From the IMG/VR virus record IMGVR_UViG_2778261457_000006, positions 1 through 24,776 of that record: DNA of 24,776 nt. One strand, given 5' to 3'. Positions 1-24,776 of the stretch are shown piece after piece; positions within the stretch are counted from its first letter, which is position 1; the number at the start of each line of letters is the position of its first letter. Origin of the DNA: a virus (lineage: Duplodnaviria > Heunggongvirae > Uroviricota > Caudoviricetes). Under the pieces are notes generated by a model that saw nothing but the letters and a program-made list of their open reading frames with translations, was not told the origin of the DNA and made no database searches. The translations under genes and the position numbers were made by a program.

Positions 1-174
1 ATGTATCGAGGGAATAATACACTTAAATCACTGATTGCCTTGTTTAGTGATATATCAAGAGATGAGTTAGCCTCAAGAATGACATCAATGCGACAGTATG
101 ATTCAGGTTCGTGTTCTGAATCATGTGAAGCATTTTCATGTCAGCTTGGATTTAATTTTGAGGATGCGGCATGA
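1..174 (+). CDS. ninD: NinD-like small protein (57 aa)
   Basis: ATG at window position 1, in-frame stop TGA 172-174 overlapping the ninE start (ATGA). Translation [42 protein letters not shown]... Position upstream of ninE matches lambda nin order. Below the 60-aa cutoff of the ORF track. The true start could lie upstream of the window. Confidence 0.5.
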
Positions 175-353
175 GACGACAGCGACGAAGTATCACCGAC
201 ATAATCTGCGAAAACTGCAAATACCTTCCAACGAAACGCTCCAGAAATAAACGCAAGCCAATCCCAAAAGAATCTGACGTAAAAATCTTCAATTACACGG
301 CTCACCTGTGGGATATCCGGTGGCTAAGACATCGCGCGAGGAAAACAAGGTGA
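171..353 (+). CDS. ninE: NinE protein (60 aa)
   Basis: ORF track 171..353; translation [23 protein letters not shown]... matches recalled lambda NinE almost residue for residue. Confidence 0.8.
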
Positions 354-523
354 TTGACCCAAATCGAAGTTACGAACAAGAAAGCGTCGAGCGGGCTTTA
401 ACGTGCGCTAACTGCGGTCAGAAGCTGCATGTGCTGGAAGTTCACGTGTGTGAGCACTGCTGCGCAGAACTGATGAGCGATCCGAATAGCTCAATGTACG
501 AGGAAGAAGACGATGGTGATTAG
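350..523 (+). CDS. ninF: NinF protein (about 57 aa), probable GTG start overlapping ninE stop
   Basis: Translation [57 protein letters not shown] matches recalled lambda NinF (CxxC...CxxC). GTG 350-352 overlaps TGA 351-353 of ninE. The ORF track's upstream ATG at 308 lies inside ninE and is less likely. Confidence 0.65.
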
Positions 524-875
524 CCGATACGGACAAATAACGTTTAAACATTTTCAAGACAATCCAACATGGGCTGCTGCGGCTGGATATGACTTTAATT
601 ATTTTGATTGTCTGTCAGTCGCATGTATTGCAACTACCAATGTTGCTAACAACATAATCGATGAATTCTTGGATTTTCCAGACTATCAGGTCAGAGAGTT
701 GCCTGCATTTTTTGTGAAAGTATCTGCTGCTACAGCTCTGTTATTTATTTTGTTATTCGCATATCCATTGCTTGCCGTATTTGTTTATGTGAGATGCAAA
801 CACTCACAAAAGAAATACAGCGGAGAGCATACCGATATTACCAGCCAAAATATGCGTGTGTGGTTGAGGAGATGA
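513..875 (+). CDS. hypothetical protein (120 aa) with C-terminal hydrophobic helix, AT-rich; not recognised
   Basis: ORF 513..875, ATG overlapping the ninF stop. Hydrophobic segment AATALLFILLFAYPLLAVFVYV followed by a basic tail. Visibly lower GC than the flanking nin genes. Occupies the position where lambda has ninG. Confidence 0.55.
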   Translation: MVISRYGQITFKHFQDNPTWAAAAGYDFNYFDCLSVACIATTNVANNIIDEFLDFPDYQVRELPAFFVKVSAATALLFILLFAYPLLAVFVYVRCKHSQKKYSGEHTDITSQNMRVWLRR

Positions 876-897
876 CAAGAGAAATGGGGGAGACGTC

Positions 898-1187
898 ATG
901 CTAACCTACGCAAAGAAGCACGCGGCAGAGAATGCCAGGTTCGTATTTACGGCATATGCAATGGCAATCCTGAAACTACAGTTCTGGCACATTACCGGAT
1001 GGCTGGAATTTGCGGAACGGGAATGAAACCTGACGACCTGATCGGCGCATGGGCTTGTAGCGCGTGTCAAGATGAAATCGACCGACGCACCCATAATCTC
1101 GACAACAAAGACGCCAGGCTTTACCACCTCGAAGGCGTGATCAGGACGCAGTCGATATTGCTGAAGGAGGGGACGATTAAGTCATGA
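898..1187 (+). pseudogene. ybcO: YbcO-like DUF1364 Cys-rich protein with apparent 1-nt frameshift after the start codon
   Basis: Frame-0 translation from about 900 reads ANLRKEARGRECQVRIYGICNGNPETTVLAHYRMAGICGTGMKPDDLIGAWACSACQDEIDRRTHNLD..., matching recalled DLP12 YbcO, but has no ATG/GTG/TTG before codon 999. The only RBS-served start (GGGGGAG 886-892, ATG 898) is in the +1 frame and terminates after 42 codons. Restoring one base after ATG (atgGctaac) would give MANLRKEARGREC... Confidence 0.6.
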
Positions 1188-1546
1188 GCGAATATCAGTT
1201 TGTGCTTCCATACCCGCCGTCGGTGAACACCTACTGGCGAAGACGGGGAAGCCAATACTACATCAGCGATAAAGGCCAGAAATACCGAAAAGACGTTCAG
1301 CAAATCATCCGCCAACTCAAGTTAGACATTTTCACCAAATCACGACTCCGCATCAAAGTCATCGCAGACGTTCCAGACTCCCGCCGCCGCGACCTCGATA
1401 ACATCCTGAAAGGTTTACTCGATTCCCTTATCCACGCCGGATTTGCGGAAGACGACGAGCAATTCGATGACATTCGCGTAATTCGTGGTGTGAAAGTACC
1501 AGGCGGAAGGCTTGGAATAAAAATCACCGAACTGGAGAACGTATGA
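1184..1546 (+). CDS. rusA: Holliday junction resolvase RusA (120 aa)
   Basis: ORF 1184..1546; translation shares hallmark motifs with recalled E. coli RusA (PPSVNTYW, RRRDLDN, GGRL..ITE). ATGA overlaps with the upstream and downstream genes. Confidence 0.9.
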   Translation: MSEYQFVLPYPPSVNTYWRRRGSQYYISDKGQKYRKDVQQIIRQLKLDIFTKSRLRIKVIADVPDSRRRDLDNILKGLLDSLIHAGFAEDDEQFDDIRVIRGVKVPGGRLGIKITELENV

Positions 1547-1731
1547 ACGCCACAATTCAAACGATACCAGAGCTTCTTATCCAGACACGAGGCAATCAGA
1601 CCGAAGTGGCGAGGATGCTTTCCTGCGCAAGAGGAACAGTGCTCAAGTACAACCGAGACAGCAAAGGCGAGCGTCACGTAATAGTTAACGGCGTCCTGAT
1701 GGTCAAACAGGGCAAAAGGGGAAGGCCATGA
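1543..1731 (+). CDS. ninH: NinH-like small HTH protein (62 aa)
   Basis: Translation ...TIPELLIQTRGNQTEVARMLSCARGTVLKYNRDSKGERHVIVNGVLMV... matches recalled lambda NinH (GNQTEVARRLKCSRGTVRKY). Confidence 0.8.
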   Translation: MNATIQTIPELLIQTRGNQTEVARMLSCARGTVLKYNRDSKGERHVIVNGVLMVKQGKRGRP

Positions 1732-2351
1732 GACTCGAAAGCGTAGCTAAATTTCATTCGCCAAAAAGCCCGATGATGAGCGACTCACCACGGGCTACGG
1801 CTTCTGACTCTCTTTCCGGTACTGATGTGATGGCTGCTATGGGGATGGCGCAATCACAAGCCGGATTCGGAATGGCTGCATTCTGCGGTAAGCATGAACT
1901 CAGCCAGAACGACAAACAAAAGGCTATCAACTATCTGATGCAATTTGCACACAAGGTATCGGGGAAATACCGTGGCGTGGCAAAGCTCGAAGGAAATACT
2001 AAGGCAAAGGTGCTGCAAGTGCTCGCAACATTCGCTTATGCGGATTATTGCCGTAGTGCCGCGACGCCGGGCGCAAGATGCAGAGATTGCCACGGTACAG
2101 GCCGTGCGGTTGATATCGCCAAAACAGAGCAGTGGGGGAGAGTTGTCGAGAAAGAGTGCGGAAGATGCAAAGGCGTCGGCTATTCCAGGATGCCAGCAAG
2201 CGCCGCATATCGCGCTGTAACGATGCTAATCCCAAACCTTACCCAACCCACCTGGTCACGCACTGTTAAGCCGCTGTATGACGCTCTGGTGGTGCAATGC
2301 CACAAGGAAGAGTCAATTGCAGACAACATTTTGAATGCGGTCACACGTTAG
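1728..2351 (+). CDS. Q: late gene antiterminator Q (207 aa), lambda type
   Basis: Full-length translation MRLESVAKFHSPKSPMMSDSPRATASDSL...CRDCHGTGRAVD...CGRCKGVGY... matches recalled lambda Q (zinc-finger Cys motifs, same length). Confidence 0.93.
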   Translation: MRLESVAKFHSPKSPMMSDSPRATASDSLSGTDVMAAMGMAQSQAGFGMAAFCGKHELSQNDKQKAINYLMQFAHKVSGKYRGVAKLEGNTKAKVLQVLATFAYADYCRSAATPGARCRDCHGTGRAVDIAKTEQWGRVVEKECGRCKGVGYSRMPASAAYRAVTMLIPNLTQPTWSRTVKPLYDALVVQCHKEESIADNILNAVTR

Positions 2352-2393
2352 CAGCATGATTGCCACGGATGGCAACATATTAACGGCATGATA

Positions 2394-2430
2394 TTGACTT
2401 TTTGAATAAAGTTGGGTAAATTTGACTCAA
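2394..2430 (+). promoter_or_regulatory. late promoter pR' (-35 TTGACT 2394-2399, 17-bp spacer, -10 TAAATT 2417-2422) with overlapping qut region
   Basis: Sigma70 hexamers read directly from the sequence with 17-bp spacing, about 45 bp after the Q stop. Matches the recalled lambda pR' sequence ttgact...gggtaaatttgactcaacgatggg. Confidence 0.75.
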
Positions 2431-2622
2431 CGATGGGTTAATTCGCTCGTTGTGGTAGTGAGATGAAAAGAGGCGGCGCTTACTACCGATTCCGCCTAGT
2501 TGGTCACTTCGACGTATCGTCTGGAACTCCAACCATCGCAGGCTGAGAGGTCTGTAAAATGCAATCCCGAAACAGTTCGCAGGTAATAGTTAGAGCCTGC
2601 ATAACGGTTTCGGGATTTTTTA
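2429..2622 (+). ncRNA. pR' leader transcript (lambda 6S RNA equivalent, about 194 nt) ending at tR'
   Basis: The distance from the predicted start (about 2429) to the end of the tR' U-tract (about 2621) equals the known length of the lambda 6S RNA. Ends are inferred, not measured. Confidence 0.5.
2564..2621 (+). terminator. tR' rho-independent terminator
   Basis: Inverted repeat atcccgaaac (2564-2573) / gtttcgggat (2607-2616) enclosing an inner cgcagg/cctgc hairpin, followed by TTTTTT (2616-2621). Confidence 0.7.
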
Positions 2623-2625
2623 TTT

Positions 2626-2700
2626 GGGTCAGTCGTATAAAGGTCATTACGGAAGGCTGTTAACCTTCTTATCGTGGTTCGAGTCCACGCTGTCCCGCCA
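2626..2700 (+). tRNA. tRNA-like gene, predicted anticodon GTT (Asn), slightly degenerate
   Basis: Hand-folded cloverleaf: acceptor gggtcag/ctgtccc (6 of 7 pairs, one T-T), perfect anticodon stem gaagg/ccttc with loop ctGTTaa, perfect T-stem cgtgg/ccacg with T-loop ttcgagt, discriminator g and encoded CCA 2698-2700. D-stem has only 3 pairs. Confidence 0.55.
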
Positions 2701-2705
2701 AATAT

Positions 2706-2781
2706 GCTGGTTTAGCTCCAATGGTAGAGCAGTCGCCTTGTAAGCGAATGGGTAGCGGTTCAAGTCCGTTAACCAGCACCA
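2706..2781 (+). tRNA. tRNA-Thr (anticodon TGT)
   Basis: Hand-folded cloverleaf: perfect 7-bp acceptor gctggtt/aaccagc, D-stem gctc/gagc with GG in the D-loop, anticodon loop ctTGTaa (U33, A37), T-arm agcgg-ttcaagt-ccgtt, discriminator a and encoded CCA 2779-2781. Confidence 0.75.
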
Positions 2782-3023
2782 TAACTGAGCCGTAGCCACT
2801 GGCTATCCTGAACTCATCAGTGATAGTTATGCTGCAGCCTTCTACACATGACTTTCGTGAAAGCGGGCGGCAAGAGGTTGCGCTAACAACCTCCTGCCGT
2901 TTTGCCCGTGCATATCGGTCACGAACAAATCTGATTACTAAACACAGTAGCCTGGATTTGTTCTATCAGTAATCGACCTTATTCCTAATTAAATAGAGCA
3001 AATCCCCTTATTGGGGGTAAGAC

Positions 3024-3347
3024 ATGAAGATGCCAGAAAAACATGACCTGTTAGCCGCCATTCTCGCGGCAAAGGAACAAGGCATCGGGGCAATCCTTGC
3101 GTTTGCAATGGCGTACCTTCGCGGCAGATATAATGGCGGTGCGTTTACAAAAACAGTAATCGACGCAACGATGTGCGCCATTATCGCCTGGTTCATTCGT
3201 GACCTTCTCGACTTCGCCGGACTAAGTAGCAATCTCGCTTATATAACGAGCGTGTTCATCGGCTACATCGGTACTGACTCGATTGGTTCGCTTATCAAAC
3301 GCTTCGCTGCTAAAAAAGCCGGAGTAGAAGATGGTGGAAATCAATAA
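3024..3347 (+). CDS. S: holin S (107 aa) with dual-start motif Met1-Lys2-Met3
   Basis: Translation [34 protein letters not shown]... matches recalled lambda S107/S105. ATG AAG ATG dual start with an upstream cccc..gggg hairpin (sdi-like) at about 3003-3016. Confidence 0.93.
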
Positions 3348-22377: not shown

Positions 22378-23532
22378 TCATGCTTTTCCGTCAATGAAAT
22401 CAGCCCACCACTGCATCATTTCTCTGCGCTTATCCAGATACTGAGCATGGTTGTAAATCCCGCGCACAGATCCACCGTTGGCATGCGCCAGTTGAACCTC
22501 AATCGCGTCAGCAGGCCATTCGTGCTCGTTCATAATCGTGCTGAATTCATGCCTGAATCCGTGTCCGCTTTCCAGACCCTCATATCCGATTTGTTTGATC
22601 ACAAGTAGTACAGCGTTCTCGCAAATTGGCTTCTTCTTATCGTTGCGCCCGGCAAAAACATACTCTGATACTGGTTTAGTGATTGAGCTTAGCGTAGTGA
22701 GAAGTTCAACCACCTGGTCTGACATCGGGACCACATGAATTTTGCGTCCCTTCATCACACTGGCGTCGATGGTGATAATCCTGTTTTCAAAATCGACGTT
22801 CTTCCATTGCATGGAGCGAAGCTCTTTCGTTCTTAGGGCTGTGTAGCGTAAAACTTTGGTCGCAATGAGCGATACGATACTTCCTGAAAATGTTGCCAGT
22901 GCTTTGTTGAATGCAGGGATCTGGTCTGCTGGAAGAAACGGGAAGTTCTTCTTGCGGTATCCTTTCATGGCGTCTGCAAGGTCAGGTGCCGGGTTATATT
23001 TAGCCCTTCCGGTGACAATAGCGTAACGGAAAACCTCGCCGCATCTTCTGCGGGCTTTGTTGGCTCGTTCCATTGCACCGCGATCTTCAAATCTGCGGAT
23101 TACTTCCAGCAGTTGCATCGGCTCAATATCCTGAATCTCAAGACCGCCGATGATGGGTAAAATGTCGTCATCAAACATTTTGGCAAGCTCAGTTGCATAG
23201 CCTACTGACCATACTTGCTTCTTGTGCTCGTACCATTCCTTGTAAATTGCACTAAAGGAATTGTTGTTAGACGAAGCCTTTTTCGCTTTTACCGGATCGA
23301 TGCCAACCGAGATGTCTTTCCTCGCGGTCCATGCTTTATCTCTTGCCTCCTGCAAAGTCATTAGCGGATATTTTCCTACGGTCAGGATTTTCTCCTTACC
23401 GTCAATCTTGTAGCGAAGCTGCCATACCTTTTTCCCTGACACAGGGACATAAAGGTACAGGCCATTACCATCGAGTAGGCGGTATGGTTTTTCTTTCGGC
23501 TTTGCTGCTTCAATCTGCTTAACGGTGAGCAT
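22378..23532 (-). CDS. int: tyrosine integrase, P4 family (about 384 aa from ATG 23532; ORF extends to GTG 23568)
   Basis: N-terminus MLTVKQIEAAKPKEKPYRLLDGNGLYLYVPVSGKKVWQLRYKIDGKEK is the P4-type arm-binding domain. C-terminal ..GHGFRHEF.. and ..LAHANGGSVRGIYNHAQY.. carry the catalytic His/Arg/Tyr region. Resembles my recollection of E. coli K-12 IntS next to argW. Confidence 0.9.
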   Translation of the reverse strand: MLTVKQIEAAKPKEKPYRLLDGNGLYLYVPVSGKKVWQLRYKIDGKEKILTVGKYPLMTLQEARDKAWTARKDISVGIDPVKAKKASSNNNSFSAIYKEWYEHKKQVWSVGYATELAKMFDDDILPIIGGLEIQDIEPMQLLEVIRRFEDRGAMERANKARRRCGEVFRYAIVTGRAKYNPAPDLADAMKGYRKKNFPFLPADQIPAFNKALATFSGSIVSLIATKVLRYTALRTKELRSMQWKNVDFENRIITIDASVMKGRKIHVVPMSDQVVELLTTLSSITKPVSEYVFAGRNDKKKPICENAVLLVIKQIGYEGLESGHGFRHEFSTIMNEHEWPADAIEVQLAHANGGSVRGIYNHAQYLDKRREMMQWWADFIDGKA

Positions 23533-23693
23533 GGGTAAAAATCCGGTGGGTAAAATTATTTTATCCACTTTTTACCCGTCATGGAGTGCGGCTGTCAACG
23601 ATCTGACGCGAACCATTACGAACTGTGAATCTGCGGAAGGCTTGATATTCAGGGAATTTTGCGGACTGGTACGGATGGGAGCGAACTGATAAA

Positions 23694-23768
23694 TGGTGTC
23701 CCCTGCAGGAATCGAACCTGCAATTAGCCCTTAGGAGGGGCTCGTTATATCCATTTAACTAAGAGGAC
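23694..23768 (-). tRNA. argW: tRNA-Arg (anticodon CCT), host argW
   Basis: Reverse complement GTCCTCTTAGTTAAATGGATATAACGAGCCCCTCCTAAGGGCTAATTGCAGGTTCGATTCCTGCAGGGGACACCA folds as a canonical cloverleaf with anticodon loop CTCCTAA. Matches recalled E. coli argW. Confidence 0.9.
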
Positions 23769-23843
23769 AATGCGGCATGAGTATACCCGCTAATGGACTG
23801 CGGGGTAAGTACGCTGCCGCTCGATTGCTTAAACCCTCGCCAT

Positions 23844-24776
23844 TTATGCTGGGTTTTTATCATTTTTCTTAATGTTTTCCGCACGTTCTGCTTTTTGGCG
23901 TGCTTCTGCTTTACGCTTGTTGCTCATGTCGTTACGAATCTGTGCATGACTCATTAACGCGAAGATAAAGGTGCCGCCGCAGATGTTCCCCGCTAAAGTA
24001 GGTAGTGCGAAGGGCCAGATGAAATCGCTCCAGTGCAGCGTGCCGTTAAACACCAGATAGAGGATTTCAACAGAACCGACAACGATGTGGGTGGTGTCAC
24101 CCAGTGCAATAAGCCAGGTCATCAATATAATCACCACAATCTTTGCCGCACCCGCAGCAGGAAACATCCAAACCATAGTGGCGATCAGCCAGCCGGAAAT
24201 GATCGCGTTGGCAAACATCTCGCTGGGGGTGTTCTTCATCACATCCATGCCGATTTTGACAAATGCATCGCGAGTTTCTTCATTGAAGATAGGCATATAT
24301 TCAAATGCCCATGCAGCAATACCTGTCCCGAGAATATTACCCAGCAGCACGACGCCCCATAATCGCATAAGTAAGCCGACGTTGCTCATTGTCGGTTTTT
24401 GCATGACGGGTAGTACCGCAGTCACGGTGTTTTCGGTAAATAATTGCTGGCGGGCCATAATGACGATAATAAAACCAAAGGTATAACCGAGATTCTCCAG
24501 TAAGAAGCTGCCTGGCACTCCTTCCAGTTCGACATGAAATATCCCTTTTGCCAGTAGCGAAGCGCCCATCGACAGACCCGCCGCAATGGCTGACCACAGT
24601 AGCGCCATTGCGTCGCGTTCCAGCTCTTTTTCACCATCCTGGCGGATATGCTCATGAATTGCCATCGCCCGGGAGGGGAGTCGATCTTCATCTATTTCTA
24701 TTTTTTTGCCGCGCTCTTTTTCTTCGCTCTCAACTTCAATTTCGTCGCTGTGTTGATCAATTTTGTCGTTGTCCAT
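23844..24776 (-). CDS. yfdC: inner membrane protein YfdC (formate/nitrite transporter family, 310 aa), host gene
   Basis: Minus-strand ORF ending exactly at the window edge; polytopic membrane protein. Matches recalled E. coli YfdC, which neighbours argW in K-12. Confidence 0.85.
   Translation of the reverse strand: MDNDKIDQHSDEIEVESEEKERGKKIEIDEDRLPSRAMAIHEHIRQDGEKELERDAMALLWSAIAAGLSMGASLLAKGIFHVELEGVPGSFLLENLGYTFGFIIVIMARQQLFTENTVTAVLPVMQKPTMSNVGLLMRLWGVVLLGNILGTGIAAWAFEYMPIFNEETRDAFVKIGMDVMKNTPSEMFANAIISGWLIATMVWMFPAAGAAKIVVIILMTWLIALGDTTHIVVGSVEILYLVFNGTLHWSDFIWPFALPTLAGNICGGTFIFALMSHAQIRNDMSNKRKAEARQKAERAENIKKNDKNPA

What the first reader, a model, noticed from the sequence alone, without database searches (positions are those of the whole stretch)
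876..1187. ybcO-like DUF1364 gene is disrupted by a 1-nt frameshift immediately after its start codon
The conserved Cys-rich reading frame (RKEARGRECQVRIYGICNGNPETTV...CSACQDEIDRRTH) has no canonical start codon upstream of codon 999, while the only RBS-served ATG (898) is in the +1 frame and terminates after 42 codons. This looks like loss of one base right after ATG (atgGctaac). It is either a recent inactivating mutation in a nin-region gene, a sequencing/assembly error in a short run, or expression of only a truncated product from ATG 999.
Basis: partly seen in the sequence, partly recalled or inferred. Interest (0 to 1): 0.45.

Follow-up and report, generated by a model that had tools for sequence, protein, structure and literature searches.

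The report
Frameshifted ybcO nuclease gene in prophage
A small predicted nuclease gene in the non-essential "nin" region of a P22-like E. coli prophage has really lost one base just after its start codon; the same dead allele circulates in at least two dozen other assemblies, so it is an ordinary inherited pseudogene and not a sequencing error.

Summary
The window reads cATGCTAACC at 897-906. Every relative aligned reads cATGGCTAACC. One G of the GG at 900/901 is missing, so the Shine-Dalgarno-served ATG at 898 is out of frame with the YbcO/DUF1364 frame (Pfam PF07102, E=3e-43).

- In relatives the gene overlaps an upstream 130-aa orphan gene by 8 nt (ATGGCTAA). The deletion therefore also removes that gene's stop and puts both genes in one frame.
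- A second lesion lies 25 nt upstream. TGC has become TGA at 873-875, which truncates the upstream protein to 120 aa and prevents a 224-aa fusion.
- Both lesions occur together in all 18 related loci I checked by sequence, out of 24 contigs that encode the truncated upstream protein. The fetched loci come from independent isolates and gut metagenomes and show at least five nin-region gene arrangements. Neither single-lesion genotype turned up.

This rules out a sequencing error. It shows a circulating null allele, not a private recent mutation.

No recoding signal is present. Any product from downstream starts (ATT 945, ATG 999, ATG 1023) lacks zinc ligands and, except from ATT 945, the catalytic His. 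Other ybcO copies carry different N-terminal lesions. Verdict: ordinary decay of a dispensable prophage gene, of low interest. The paired lesions may be a two-step compensatory event.

The parts
513..875 (+). Upstream orphan gene (phrog_2638, no Pfam family), truncated here to 120 aa. Relatives encode 130 aa ending ...RRCQEKWGRRHG.
   Evidence: ORF. Relatives annotated at 130 aa, overlapping DUF1364 by 8 nt. PHROG hit E=3e-55. Translations compared.
873..875 (+). Nonsense codon TGA. All relatives have TGC (Cys121), so this is a C-to-A change at 875.
   Evidence: Alignments. Difference list. The TGA variant was absent from viral contigs but present in all 18 lesion-bearing loci.
886..892 (+). 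Shine-Dalgarno-like GGGGGAG, 5 nt upstream of ATG 898.
   Evidence: Sequence.
898..900 (+). Original ybcO start codon, now one base out of frame with the gene body.
900..901 (+). Site of the 1-nt deletion (GG to G). In relatives the sequence is ATGGCTAA, which is the ybcO start overlapping the upstream gene's TAA stop.
   Evidence: Relatives are 1 nt longer across the region.
898..1026 (+). 42-aa out-of-frame ORF read from the displaced ATG (MLTYAKKHAAENARF...).
   Evidence: The exact peptide is encoded on 18 contigs read.
876..1187 (+). Body of the ybcO/DUF1364 pseudogene. It lies in the same frame as the upstream gene and has no internal stop.
   Evidence: Pfam PF07102 E=3.1e-43. PDB 3g27 YbcO E=3.5e-40 for the intact relative. 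Continuous translation ...VWLRR*QEKWGRRHANLRKEARGREC....
945..947 (+). ATT codon (Ile17), at which the 80-aa DUF1364 product on record for NCBI assemblies of this allele starts.
   Evidence: product at locus 1933..2175, which is window 945..1187.
1023..1187 (+). 54-aa C-terminal fragment ORF. Its ATG (Met43) overlaps the stop of the 42-aa ORF as ATGA, and its own stop overlaps the rusA ATG as ATGA.
   Evidence: Gene calls. ATGA at 1023, 1184, 1543 and 1728. The exact 54-aa peptide is on 9 contigs.
1068..1070 (+). Codon 58 is CAA (Gln), where 116 of 117 intact copies have His (CSACH motif).
1184..1546 (+). Downstream rusA (Holliday-junction resolvase), intact at 120 aa.

Best explanation
This is a genuine, inherited null allele of a ybcO-type gene. 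The gene encodes a DUF1364 protein, a predicted His-Me-finger (HNH-like) nuclease with a treble-clef zinc finger. It lies in the dispensable nin region of a P22-like prophage integrated at argW of an Escherichia chromosome. One G was lost from the 8-nt overlap ATGGCTAA that joins the upstream orphan gene to ybcO. That single event has two effects. It puts the SD-served ATG out of frame with ybcO, so ribosomes starting there make an unrelated 42-aa peptide. It also removes the upstream gene's stop from its frame, so the two genes would be read as one 224-aa fusion. A second change, TGC to TGA at 873-875, ends the upstream protein 10 residues short of its normal length and keeps the genes apart. 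No full-length YbcO can be made from a canonical start. Fragments from ATT 945, ATG 999 or ATG 1023 lack Cys13, or Cys13 and Cys21, and the last two also lack the catalytic His32. The chain of ATGA stop/start overlaps at 1023, 1184, 1543 and 1728 survives. I infer, without having shown it, that ribosome flow into rusA, ninH and Q is largely kept. That would help explain why the allele is tolerated and has spread. Shown: both lesions, the frame relations, recurrence in many assemblies, and family membership. Inferred: loss of function, preserved coupling, and the order of the two mutations.
For: Deletion and nonsense codon against relatives. Relatives annotated as a 130-aa gene overlapping a 96-aa DUF1364 gene by 8 nt, followed by rusA, ninH and Q, each overlapping by 4 nt. 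Family: Pfam PF07102, PDB 3g27, PHROG 131 'HNH endonuclease'. Predicted nuclease with a catalytic His on the beta-hairpin: PMC4999995 and PMC5714182. Real and not an error: the exact 120-aa and 42-aa products are in the protein collection. Contigs encoding them were read from independent SRR/DRR/ERR runs, ENA gut metagenomes and four NCBI assemblies (18 for the 42-aa product, 24 for the 120-aa product). All 18 fetched loci carry both lesions. Neighbouring genes differ among the loci (NinB variants, PAPS reductase, Dam, HNH_3, NinX, plus an HNH_3 gene inserted before rusA in some). L126/L139 carry the lesions with a different 3' half. The rest of the prophage looks intact on a coarse check: terminase, portal, coat, tailspike and integrase are all long ORFs, with 95% identity over 72% of the window to phage IME10. 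Host flank is yfdC plus tRNA-Arg(cct) at 99.8% to E. coli. Established knowledge, from memory: lambda nin5 deletion mutants lacking this region are viable.
Against: No expression data exist, so 'null' is an inference from sequence. The frame-0 body has no further stop or indel in any lesion-bearing copy. That fits a young pseudogene but would also fit continued use. Against the nearest intact relative the body has 4 synonymous and 4 non-synonymous changes, too few to show relaxed selection. The allele was not found in 5,426 complete E. coli genomes, GTDB representative genomes, IMG/VR or JGI metagenomes, so it is rare.
Confidence: 0.85

Rival explanations
1. The missing G is a sequencing or assembly error in this one record, and the gene is really intact.
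For: The deletion lies in a GG dinucleotide. The exact deleted 22-mer is absent from GTDB representative genomes, IMG/VR and JGI metagenome contigs, and from complete E. coli genomes.
Against: All 18 related loci fetched carry the identical deletion together with the linked C-to-A substitution. They come from contigs of unrelated sequencing projects and assemblers. A substitution is not a homopolymer-type error. No other large gene in the 24.8-kb window is broken.
Confidence: 0.02
2. The gene is still expressed by recoding. Three routes are possible: a -1 slip of ribosomes from the ATG-898 frame at GCA_AAG (912-915), giving MLTYAK-EARGREC...; read-through of UGA-C at 873-876, giving an upstream-YbcO fusion; or initiation at ATT 945.
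For: A_AAG is the most shift-prone tetramer in E. coli (PMC4066793). A -1 slip there would restore everything from Lys6 onward, as read directly from the sequence. The upstream gene and ybcO share one frame across the TGA. The frame-0 body is intact in all copies. An 80-aa ATT-initiated product is on record for the NCBI assemblies.
Against: Tetramers without a downstream stimulator shift at about 0.15%, barely above background (PMC4066793). No stimulatory structure follows the site (z=+0.2). There is no SECIS-like hairpin after the UGA (z=+0.4). The same CGCAAAGAAG is present in intact relatives, so it was not selected for slippage. Intact in-frame ATG copies outnumber this allele by far. ATT 945 has no good SD, and its product lacks Cys13. 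Gln replaces the near-invariant His58.
Confidence: 0.05
3. The two lesions are not independent decay but a two-step event. The deletion came first and fused the upstream membrane-type protein to the nuclease. The TGA was then selected because it restored a near-native upstream protein (120 instead of 130 aa) or removed a harmful fusion.
For: Both lesions are always together in the 18 loci checked. Neither the 224-aa fusion, nor the intact 130-aa protein of this haplotype, nor the intact-start 96-aa YbcO of this haplotype is in the 15-billion-protein collection. Only 3 substitutions separate window 513-1069 from its nearest relative, and one of them is this stop. Only 0.76% of possible substitutions in the upstream gene give a stop in its last 10 codons.
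Against: The probability estimate is post hoc. The opposite order (TGA first, then the deletion) gives the same end state and cannot be excluded. Nothing is known about the function or selective value of the upstream gene. Absence of intermediates could simply reflect sparse sampling of a rare lineage.
Confidence: 0.3

Closest known systems
YbcO of the E. coli K-12 DLP12 prophage (PDB 3G27; Pfam PF07102, DUF1364/YbcO)
   Same: The intact nearest relative of the window's gene aligns with it over residues 1-95, E=3.5e-40. The protein length (96 aa), the Cys13/Cys21/Cys54/Cys57 pattern and the LAH histidine are the same. The gene sits directly upstream of rusA in both.
   Different: The window's copy has lost its in-frame start through a 1-nt deletion. 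It also carries Gln at position 58, where 116 of 117 intact copies have His. The function of YbcO itself is only predicted to be a nuclease (PMC4999995, PMC5714182). No biochemical study of it turned up in the one literature search made.
NinG (Rap) of phage lambda and relatives
   Same: It occupies the same slot in the nin region. In ST131 prophages the same upstream orphan gene is joined to ninG through the identical GTCATGGCTAA overlap. Both are proposed recombination nucleases (PMC5714182).
   Different: It is a different protein family and size (about 200 aa). It is an alternative module at this position, not a homologue shown here.
Other N-terminal null alleles of ybcO-like genes in Escherichia prophages
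   Same: The gene and module are the same, and the disruption falls within the first ~15 codons while the 3' part and rusA are retained. Examples are Q14 amber in two upstream contexts (L146, L152, L156), a 28-nt deletion (L148), a 2-nt deletion (L150), ATG to ATT (L135), and the same missing G in another upstream context (L134). PHROG 7109 is a 62-aa family matching only residues 35-95.
   Different: These are different mutations arising independently. None of them has the paired nonsense codon in the upstream gene.
Programmed -1 frameshift genes (dnaX, IS911/IS3 transposases)
   Same: An A_AAG slippery tetramer lies in the ATG-898 frame, upstream of the needed frame change.
   Different: There is no heptamer, no stimulatory structure, and no conservation of the shifted arrangement. 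It does not qualify.

Membership tests
YbcO / DUF1364 (Pfam PF07102) | Profile match above Pfam's gathering score | tested here: met
   146.2 bits against a 29.9 cut-off, profile positions 2-91 of 92, on the frame-0 translation of 876-1184.
YbcO / DUF1364 (Pfam PF07102) | Four Cys of the treble-clef zinc site (C13, C21, C54, C57) and the hairpin His (His32, LAH) proposed as catalytic | tested here: met
   All are present in the conceptual translation RECQVRIYGICNG...LAHYR...CSAC. Their roles are taken from PMC4999995. The assignment of individual residues is my reading of the alignment.
YbcO / DUF1364 (Pfam PF07102) | His58 directly after CxxC (CSACH), near-invariant in the family | tested here: not met
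   The window has Gln (CAA). 116 of 117 intact copies have His, and one intact copy (L108) also has Gln.
YbcO / DUF1364 (Pfam PF07102) | Complete ORF of ~96 codons opened by an in-frame start codon | tested here: not met
   There is no ATG, GTG or TTG in frame between 876 and 999. The ATG at 898 is displaced by the 1-nt deletion. It is therefore a pseudogene of the family and not a functional member.
YbcO / DUF1364 (Pfam PF07102) | Synteny: directly upstream of rusA in a lambdoid nin region | tested here: met
   The order is ninE, ninF, orphan, ybcO, rusA, ninH, Q in the window and in relatives. The association is noted in PMC5714182.
YbcO / DUF1364 (Pfam PF07102) | Nuclease activity | not testable with these tools
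   It is only predicted, even for intact members.
Programmed -1 ribosomal frameshift site | Slippery X_XXZ_ZZN heptamer, or an efficient tetramer with a flanking stimulator | tested here: not met
   Only the tetramer A_AAG is present at 912-915. The downstream fold is no better than shuffles (z=+0.21). Tetramers alone shift at about 0.15% (PMC4066793).
Programmed -1 ribosomal frameshift site | The shifted arrangement is conserved among homologues | tested here: not met
   117 of 119 copies that contain the intact 23-mer in viral contigs open a 96-aa ORF. The shifted allele is a rare lineage.
Bacterial selenocysteine (UGA replacing a Cys codon) | SECIS stem-loop immediately 3' of the UGA | tested here: not met
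   For 873-935 the MFE is -8.6 kcal/mol, z=+0.37, and 127 of 200 shuffles fold as well.

The most novel reading that the evidence does not exclude
The locus records a two-step adaptive repair and not passive decay. Loss of one G in the ATGGCTAA overlap fused an orphan membrane-type protein to the nuclease. A nonsense codon 25 nt upstream was then selected to restore a near-native upstream protein. The dead ybcO body is retained because its chance ATGA restart at Met43 keeps ribosomes flowing into rusA. This would imply that the uncharacterised 130-aa gene (phrog_2638), and not ybcO, is the part under selection in lysogens.
Probability: 0.25. Interest if true: 0.35.

Novelty: already known. Interest (0 to 1): 0.15.

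Why it matters
It matters little beyond correct annotation. The locus should be labelled a frameshifted DUF1364/ybcO pseudogene. The 80-aa ATT-initiated or 54/62-aa products that gene callers emit should not be treated as proteins. The case shows that one base lost in a stop/start overlap hits two genes at once. It also shows that a rare null allele can be carried across several phage mosaics. If the paired nonsense codon is compensatory, that hints that the neighbouring orphan gene is useful to the prophage or host.

Tried and rejected
(1) Exact scans for the deleted 22- and 30-mers in GTDB genomes, IMG/VR and JGI metagenomes, and megablast against complete E. coli genomes, all found no identical allele. 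Taken alone this suggested a private mutation or an error. The exact-protein look-up and contig retrieval overturned that.

(2) SECIS reading of the TGC-to-TGA change: no hairpin.

(3) -1 slippage at A_AAG: no stimulator, and the literature efficiency is about background.

(4) ATG 999 as a working start: it has no SD and is buried in a hairpin.

(5) His58Gln as proof of prior inactivation: weakened, because one intact-start copy (L108) has the same CAA codon.

(6) dN/dS against the nearest relative: only 8 differences (4 synonymous, 4 non-synonymous), which is uninformative.

(7) Look-up of the hypothetical intermediates (224-aa fusion, intact 130-aa protein, intact 96-aa protein of this haplotype): none on record, so the order of events stays open.

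(8) The 47-55-aa proteins clustered with the 42-aa peptide are spurious third-frame ORFs of intact genes, not further frameshift alleles. The 70-aa proteins clustered with the 54-aa fragment are unrelated sequences.

(9) The promoter/terminator scan of 1-3100 found nothing above shuffle expectation.

Full report
**Observation**

The window carries an SD-like GGGGGAG at 886-892 and an ATG at 898. The frame opened by that ATG stops after 42 codons at 1024-1026. Its first canonical start codon is ATG 999. Translating 876-1184 matches Pfam PF07102 (YbcO, 'putative nuclease') over profile positions 2-91 of 92, with E=3.1e-43. Homology therefore reaches the displaced ATG.

The closest relatives are E. 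coli APEC20/16, E2348/69 and two copies in Klebsiella phage phiKp_30. All read CATGGCTAACCTACGC where the window reads CAT-GCTAACCTACGC. They are also one base longer across the region. The intact 23-mer occurs in at least 120 IMG/VR contigs. In 117 of 119 of those copies it opens a 96-aa ORF. The observation and the inferred lost base are confirmed.

In relatives the DUF1364 gene (96 aa) overlaps an upstream 130-aa hypothetical gene by 8 nt, ATGGCTAA. The same upstream gene and the same junction also precede ninG in ST131 prophages.

The lost G lies inside that overlap, so it damages both genes. The ybcO ATG leaves the ybcO frame, and the upstream gene's TAA leaves the upstream frame. After the deletion the upstream gene (which starts at 513) and the ybcO body are in the same frame. 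The continuous translation is ...VWLRR*QEKWGRRHANLRKEARGRECQ....

The asterisk marks a second lesion. TGA at 873-875 stands where every relative has TGC. It cuts the upstream protein to 120 aa and is the only thing preventing a 224-aa fusion. Between window 513 and 1069 there are only three substitutions against APEC20/16, and this is one of them. Only 0.76% of possible substitutions in that gene would create a stop in its last ten codons.

**Real mutation or error?**

The deleted allele is absent from several collections:
- 5,426 complete E. coli genomes;
- GTDB representative genomes;
- IMG/VR;
- JGI metagenome contigs.

The TGA variant is also absent from IMG/VR. However, the exact 120-aa truncated protein and the exact 42-aa out-of-frame peptide are both in the large protein collection, each on about 10 contigs. 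Reading the contigs gave 18 that encode the 42-aa peptide and 24 that encode the 120-aa protein. They come from unrelated SRR, DRR and ERR runs, from ENA human-gut metagenomes, and from four NCBI assemblies (GCA_019839805.1, GCA_048025155.1, GCA_020168615.1, GCA_025439975.1).

All 18 loci fetched carry both lesions and the CAA codon at position 58. This excludes a sequencing artefact.

The flanking genes differ among these loci. There are two DnaB-type replication modules, several NinB variants, PAPS reductase or Dam, NinX, and HNH_3 homing-endonuclease insertions, one of them between ybcO and rusA. L126 and L139 combine the lesions with a different 3' half of ybcO. Window-equivalent positions 345-1048 show no mismatch in any of the first nine loci compared, as far as each reaches.

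The allele is therefore young in substitutions, yet it is found in several nin-region gene arrangements. Neither single-lesion intermediate nor the intact ancestor proteins of this haplotype are on record.

**Consequences for expression**

Ribosomes loading at the SD and ATG 898 make MLTYAKKHAAENARF... and stop at UGA 1024-1026. That stop overlaps ATG 1023 (Met43 of YbcO) as ATGA. Gene callers accordingly emit a 54-aa C-terminal fragment. Its own stop overlaps the rusA ATG as ATGA, followed by the ninH and Q overlaps. I infer that translational coupling into rusA may survive. This has not been tested.

ATG 999 has no SD and lies in a hairpin (z=-2.2). The gene calls on record for the NCBI assemblies include an 80-aa product that starts at ATT 945.

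All of these products lack Cys13. The 62-aa and 54-aa ones also lack Cys21 and the hairpin His32, which is proposed as the catalytic residue (PMC4999995).

Recoding routes have no support:
- No structure follows the A_AAG at 912-915 (z=+0.2) or the UGA (z=+0.4).
- Tetramer motifs alone shift at about background, roughly 0.15% (PMC4066793).

**Family and context**

The intact relative matches E. coli YbcO of known structure (3G27) at E=3.5e-40, and PHROG 131 'HNH endonuclease'. DUF1364 is classed as a His-Me finger and treble-clef domain. It is predicted to be a recombination nuclease and typically sits next to rusA and Q (PMC4999995; PMC5714182).

The window is a P22-like prophage:
- It is 95% identical to phage IME10 over 72% of its length.
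- It has long, apparently intact ORFs for terminase, portal, coat, tailspike and integrase.
- It is integrated at tRNA-Arg(cct) next to yfdC, and that flank is 99.8% identical to E. coli.

The nin region is dispensable in lambda (nin5 deletions; established knowledge, from memory).

**Is such decay unusual?**

No. Other ybcO-like copies carry unrelated N-terminal lesions:
- Gln14 amber in two upstream contexts (L146, L152, L156);
- a 28-nt deletion (L148);
- a 2-nt deletion (L150);
- Glu7 ochre (L154);
- ATG to ATT (L135);
- the same missing G in a different upstream context (L134);
- an extra G in the G5 run of the upstream gene, giving a 171-aa product (L145).

PHROG 7109 is a 62-aa family matching only residues 35-95. 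In E2348/69 the adjacent rusA has an internal stop.

**Verdict**

This is a real, inherited and moderately widespread frameshift null allele of a known, dispensable prophage gene. It is paired with a nonsense codon that separates it from the upstream gene it would otherwise be fused to. Confidence is 0.85. The pairing may be compensatory (about 0.3), which would be a neat but minor piece of micro-evolution. Interest is low.

Noticed in passing
window 513-905; L001 1514-1906; L124 574-966: The upstream 130-aa orphan gene (phrog_2638, no Pfam hit, with a hydrophobic stretch LPAFFVKVSAATALLFILLFAYPLLAVFVYV) is joined through the identical 8-nt ATGGCTAA overlap to ybcO in some prophages and to ninG in others. 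The start/stop overlap appears to act as a module-exchange junction. Many phage matches to the window begin exactly at 900.
   Followed up: partly
window 2626-2700 and 2706-2781: There are two phage-borne tRNA genes, tRNA-Asn(gtt) and tRNA-Thr(tgt), between Q and the holin gene. Some lesion-bearing relatives have a shorter Q-holin spacer (434 nt against 673 nt) and may lack them.
   Followed up: no
window 22378-24776: This is the prophage right end. It holds the integrase (396 aa, minus strand), tRNA-Arg(cct) at 23694-23768 (argW by my reading, as the attachment site), and host yfdC at 23844-24776, which is 99.8% identical to E. coli.
   Followed up: partly
L127 3287-3811; L140/L141 2172-2696: A 174-aa HNH_3 (homing-endonuclease-type) gene is inserted exactly between the ybcO stop and rusA in some copies of the same lesion-bearing module. 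This breaks the ATGA overlap there.
   Followed up: no
L146, L152, L156 (codon 14 of ybcO): A second circulating null allele, CAG to TAG at Gln14, is found behind two different upstream modules. Gene calls on record give it an 80-aa or 62-aa product.
   Followed up: partly
L145 around 1440-1500: The G5 run in the SD region (window 886-890) is G6 in one assembly. This frameshifts the upstream gene into a 171-aa product that overlaps ybcO, so this short run is also mutable.
   Followed up: no
L003 (Klebsiella phage phiKp_30) 1899-1930 and 2844-2875: The first ~30 nt of ybcO are present twice, flanking an inserted 236-aa DNA-binding-protein gene. This looks like a footprint of module insertion at the same junction.
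   Followed up: no
L002 (E2348/69) 2186-2548: In this related prophage rusA is annotated as a pseudogene with an internal stop, while ybcO is intact. Decay has hit a different gene of the same module.
   Followed up: no
protein clusters: The 90%-identity cluster that holds the 54-aa YbcO fragment also lists very abundant 70-aa proteins (MSDYLKWYLCYRW...) with no visible similarity to it. This is probably a clustering artefact in the database.
   Followed up: no
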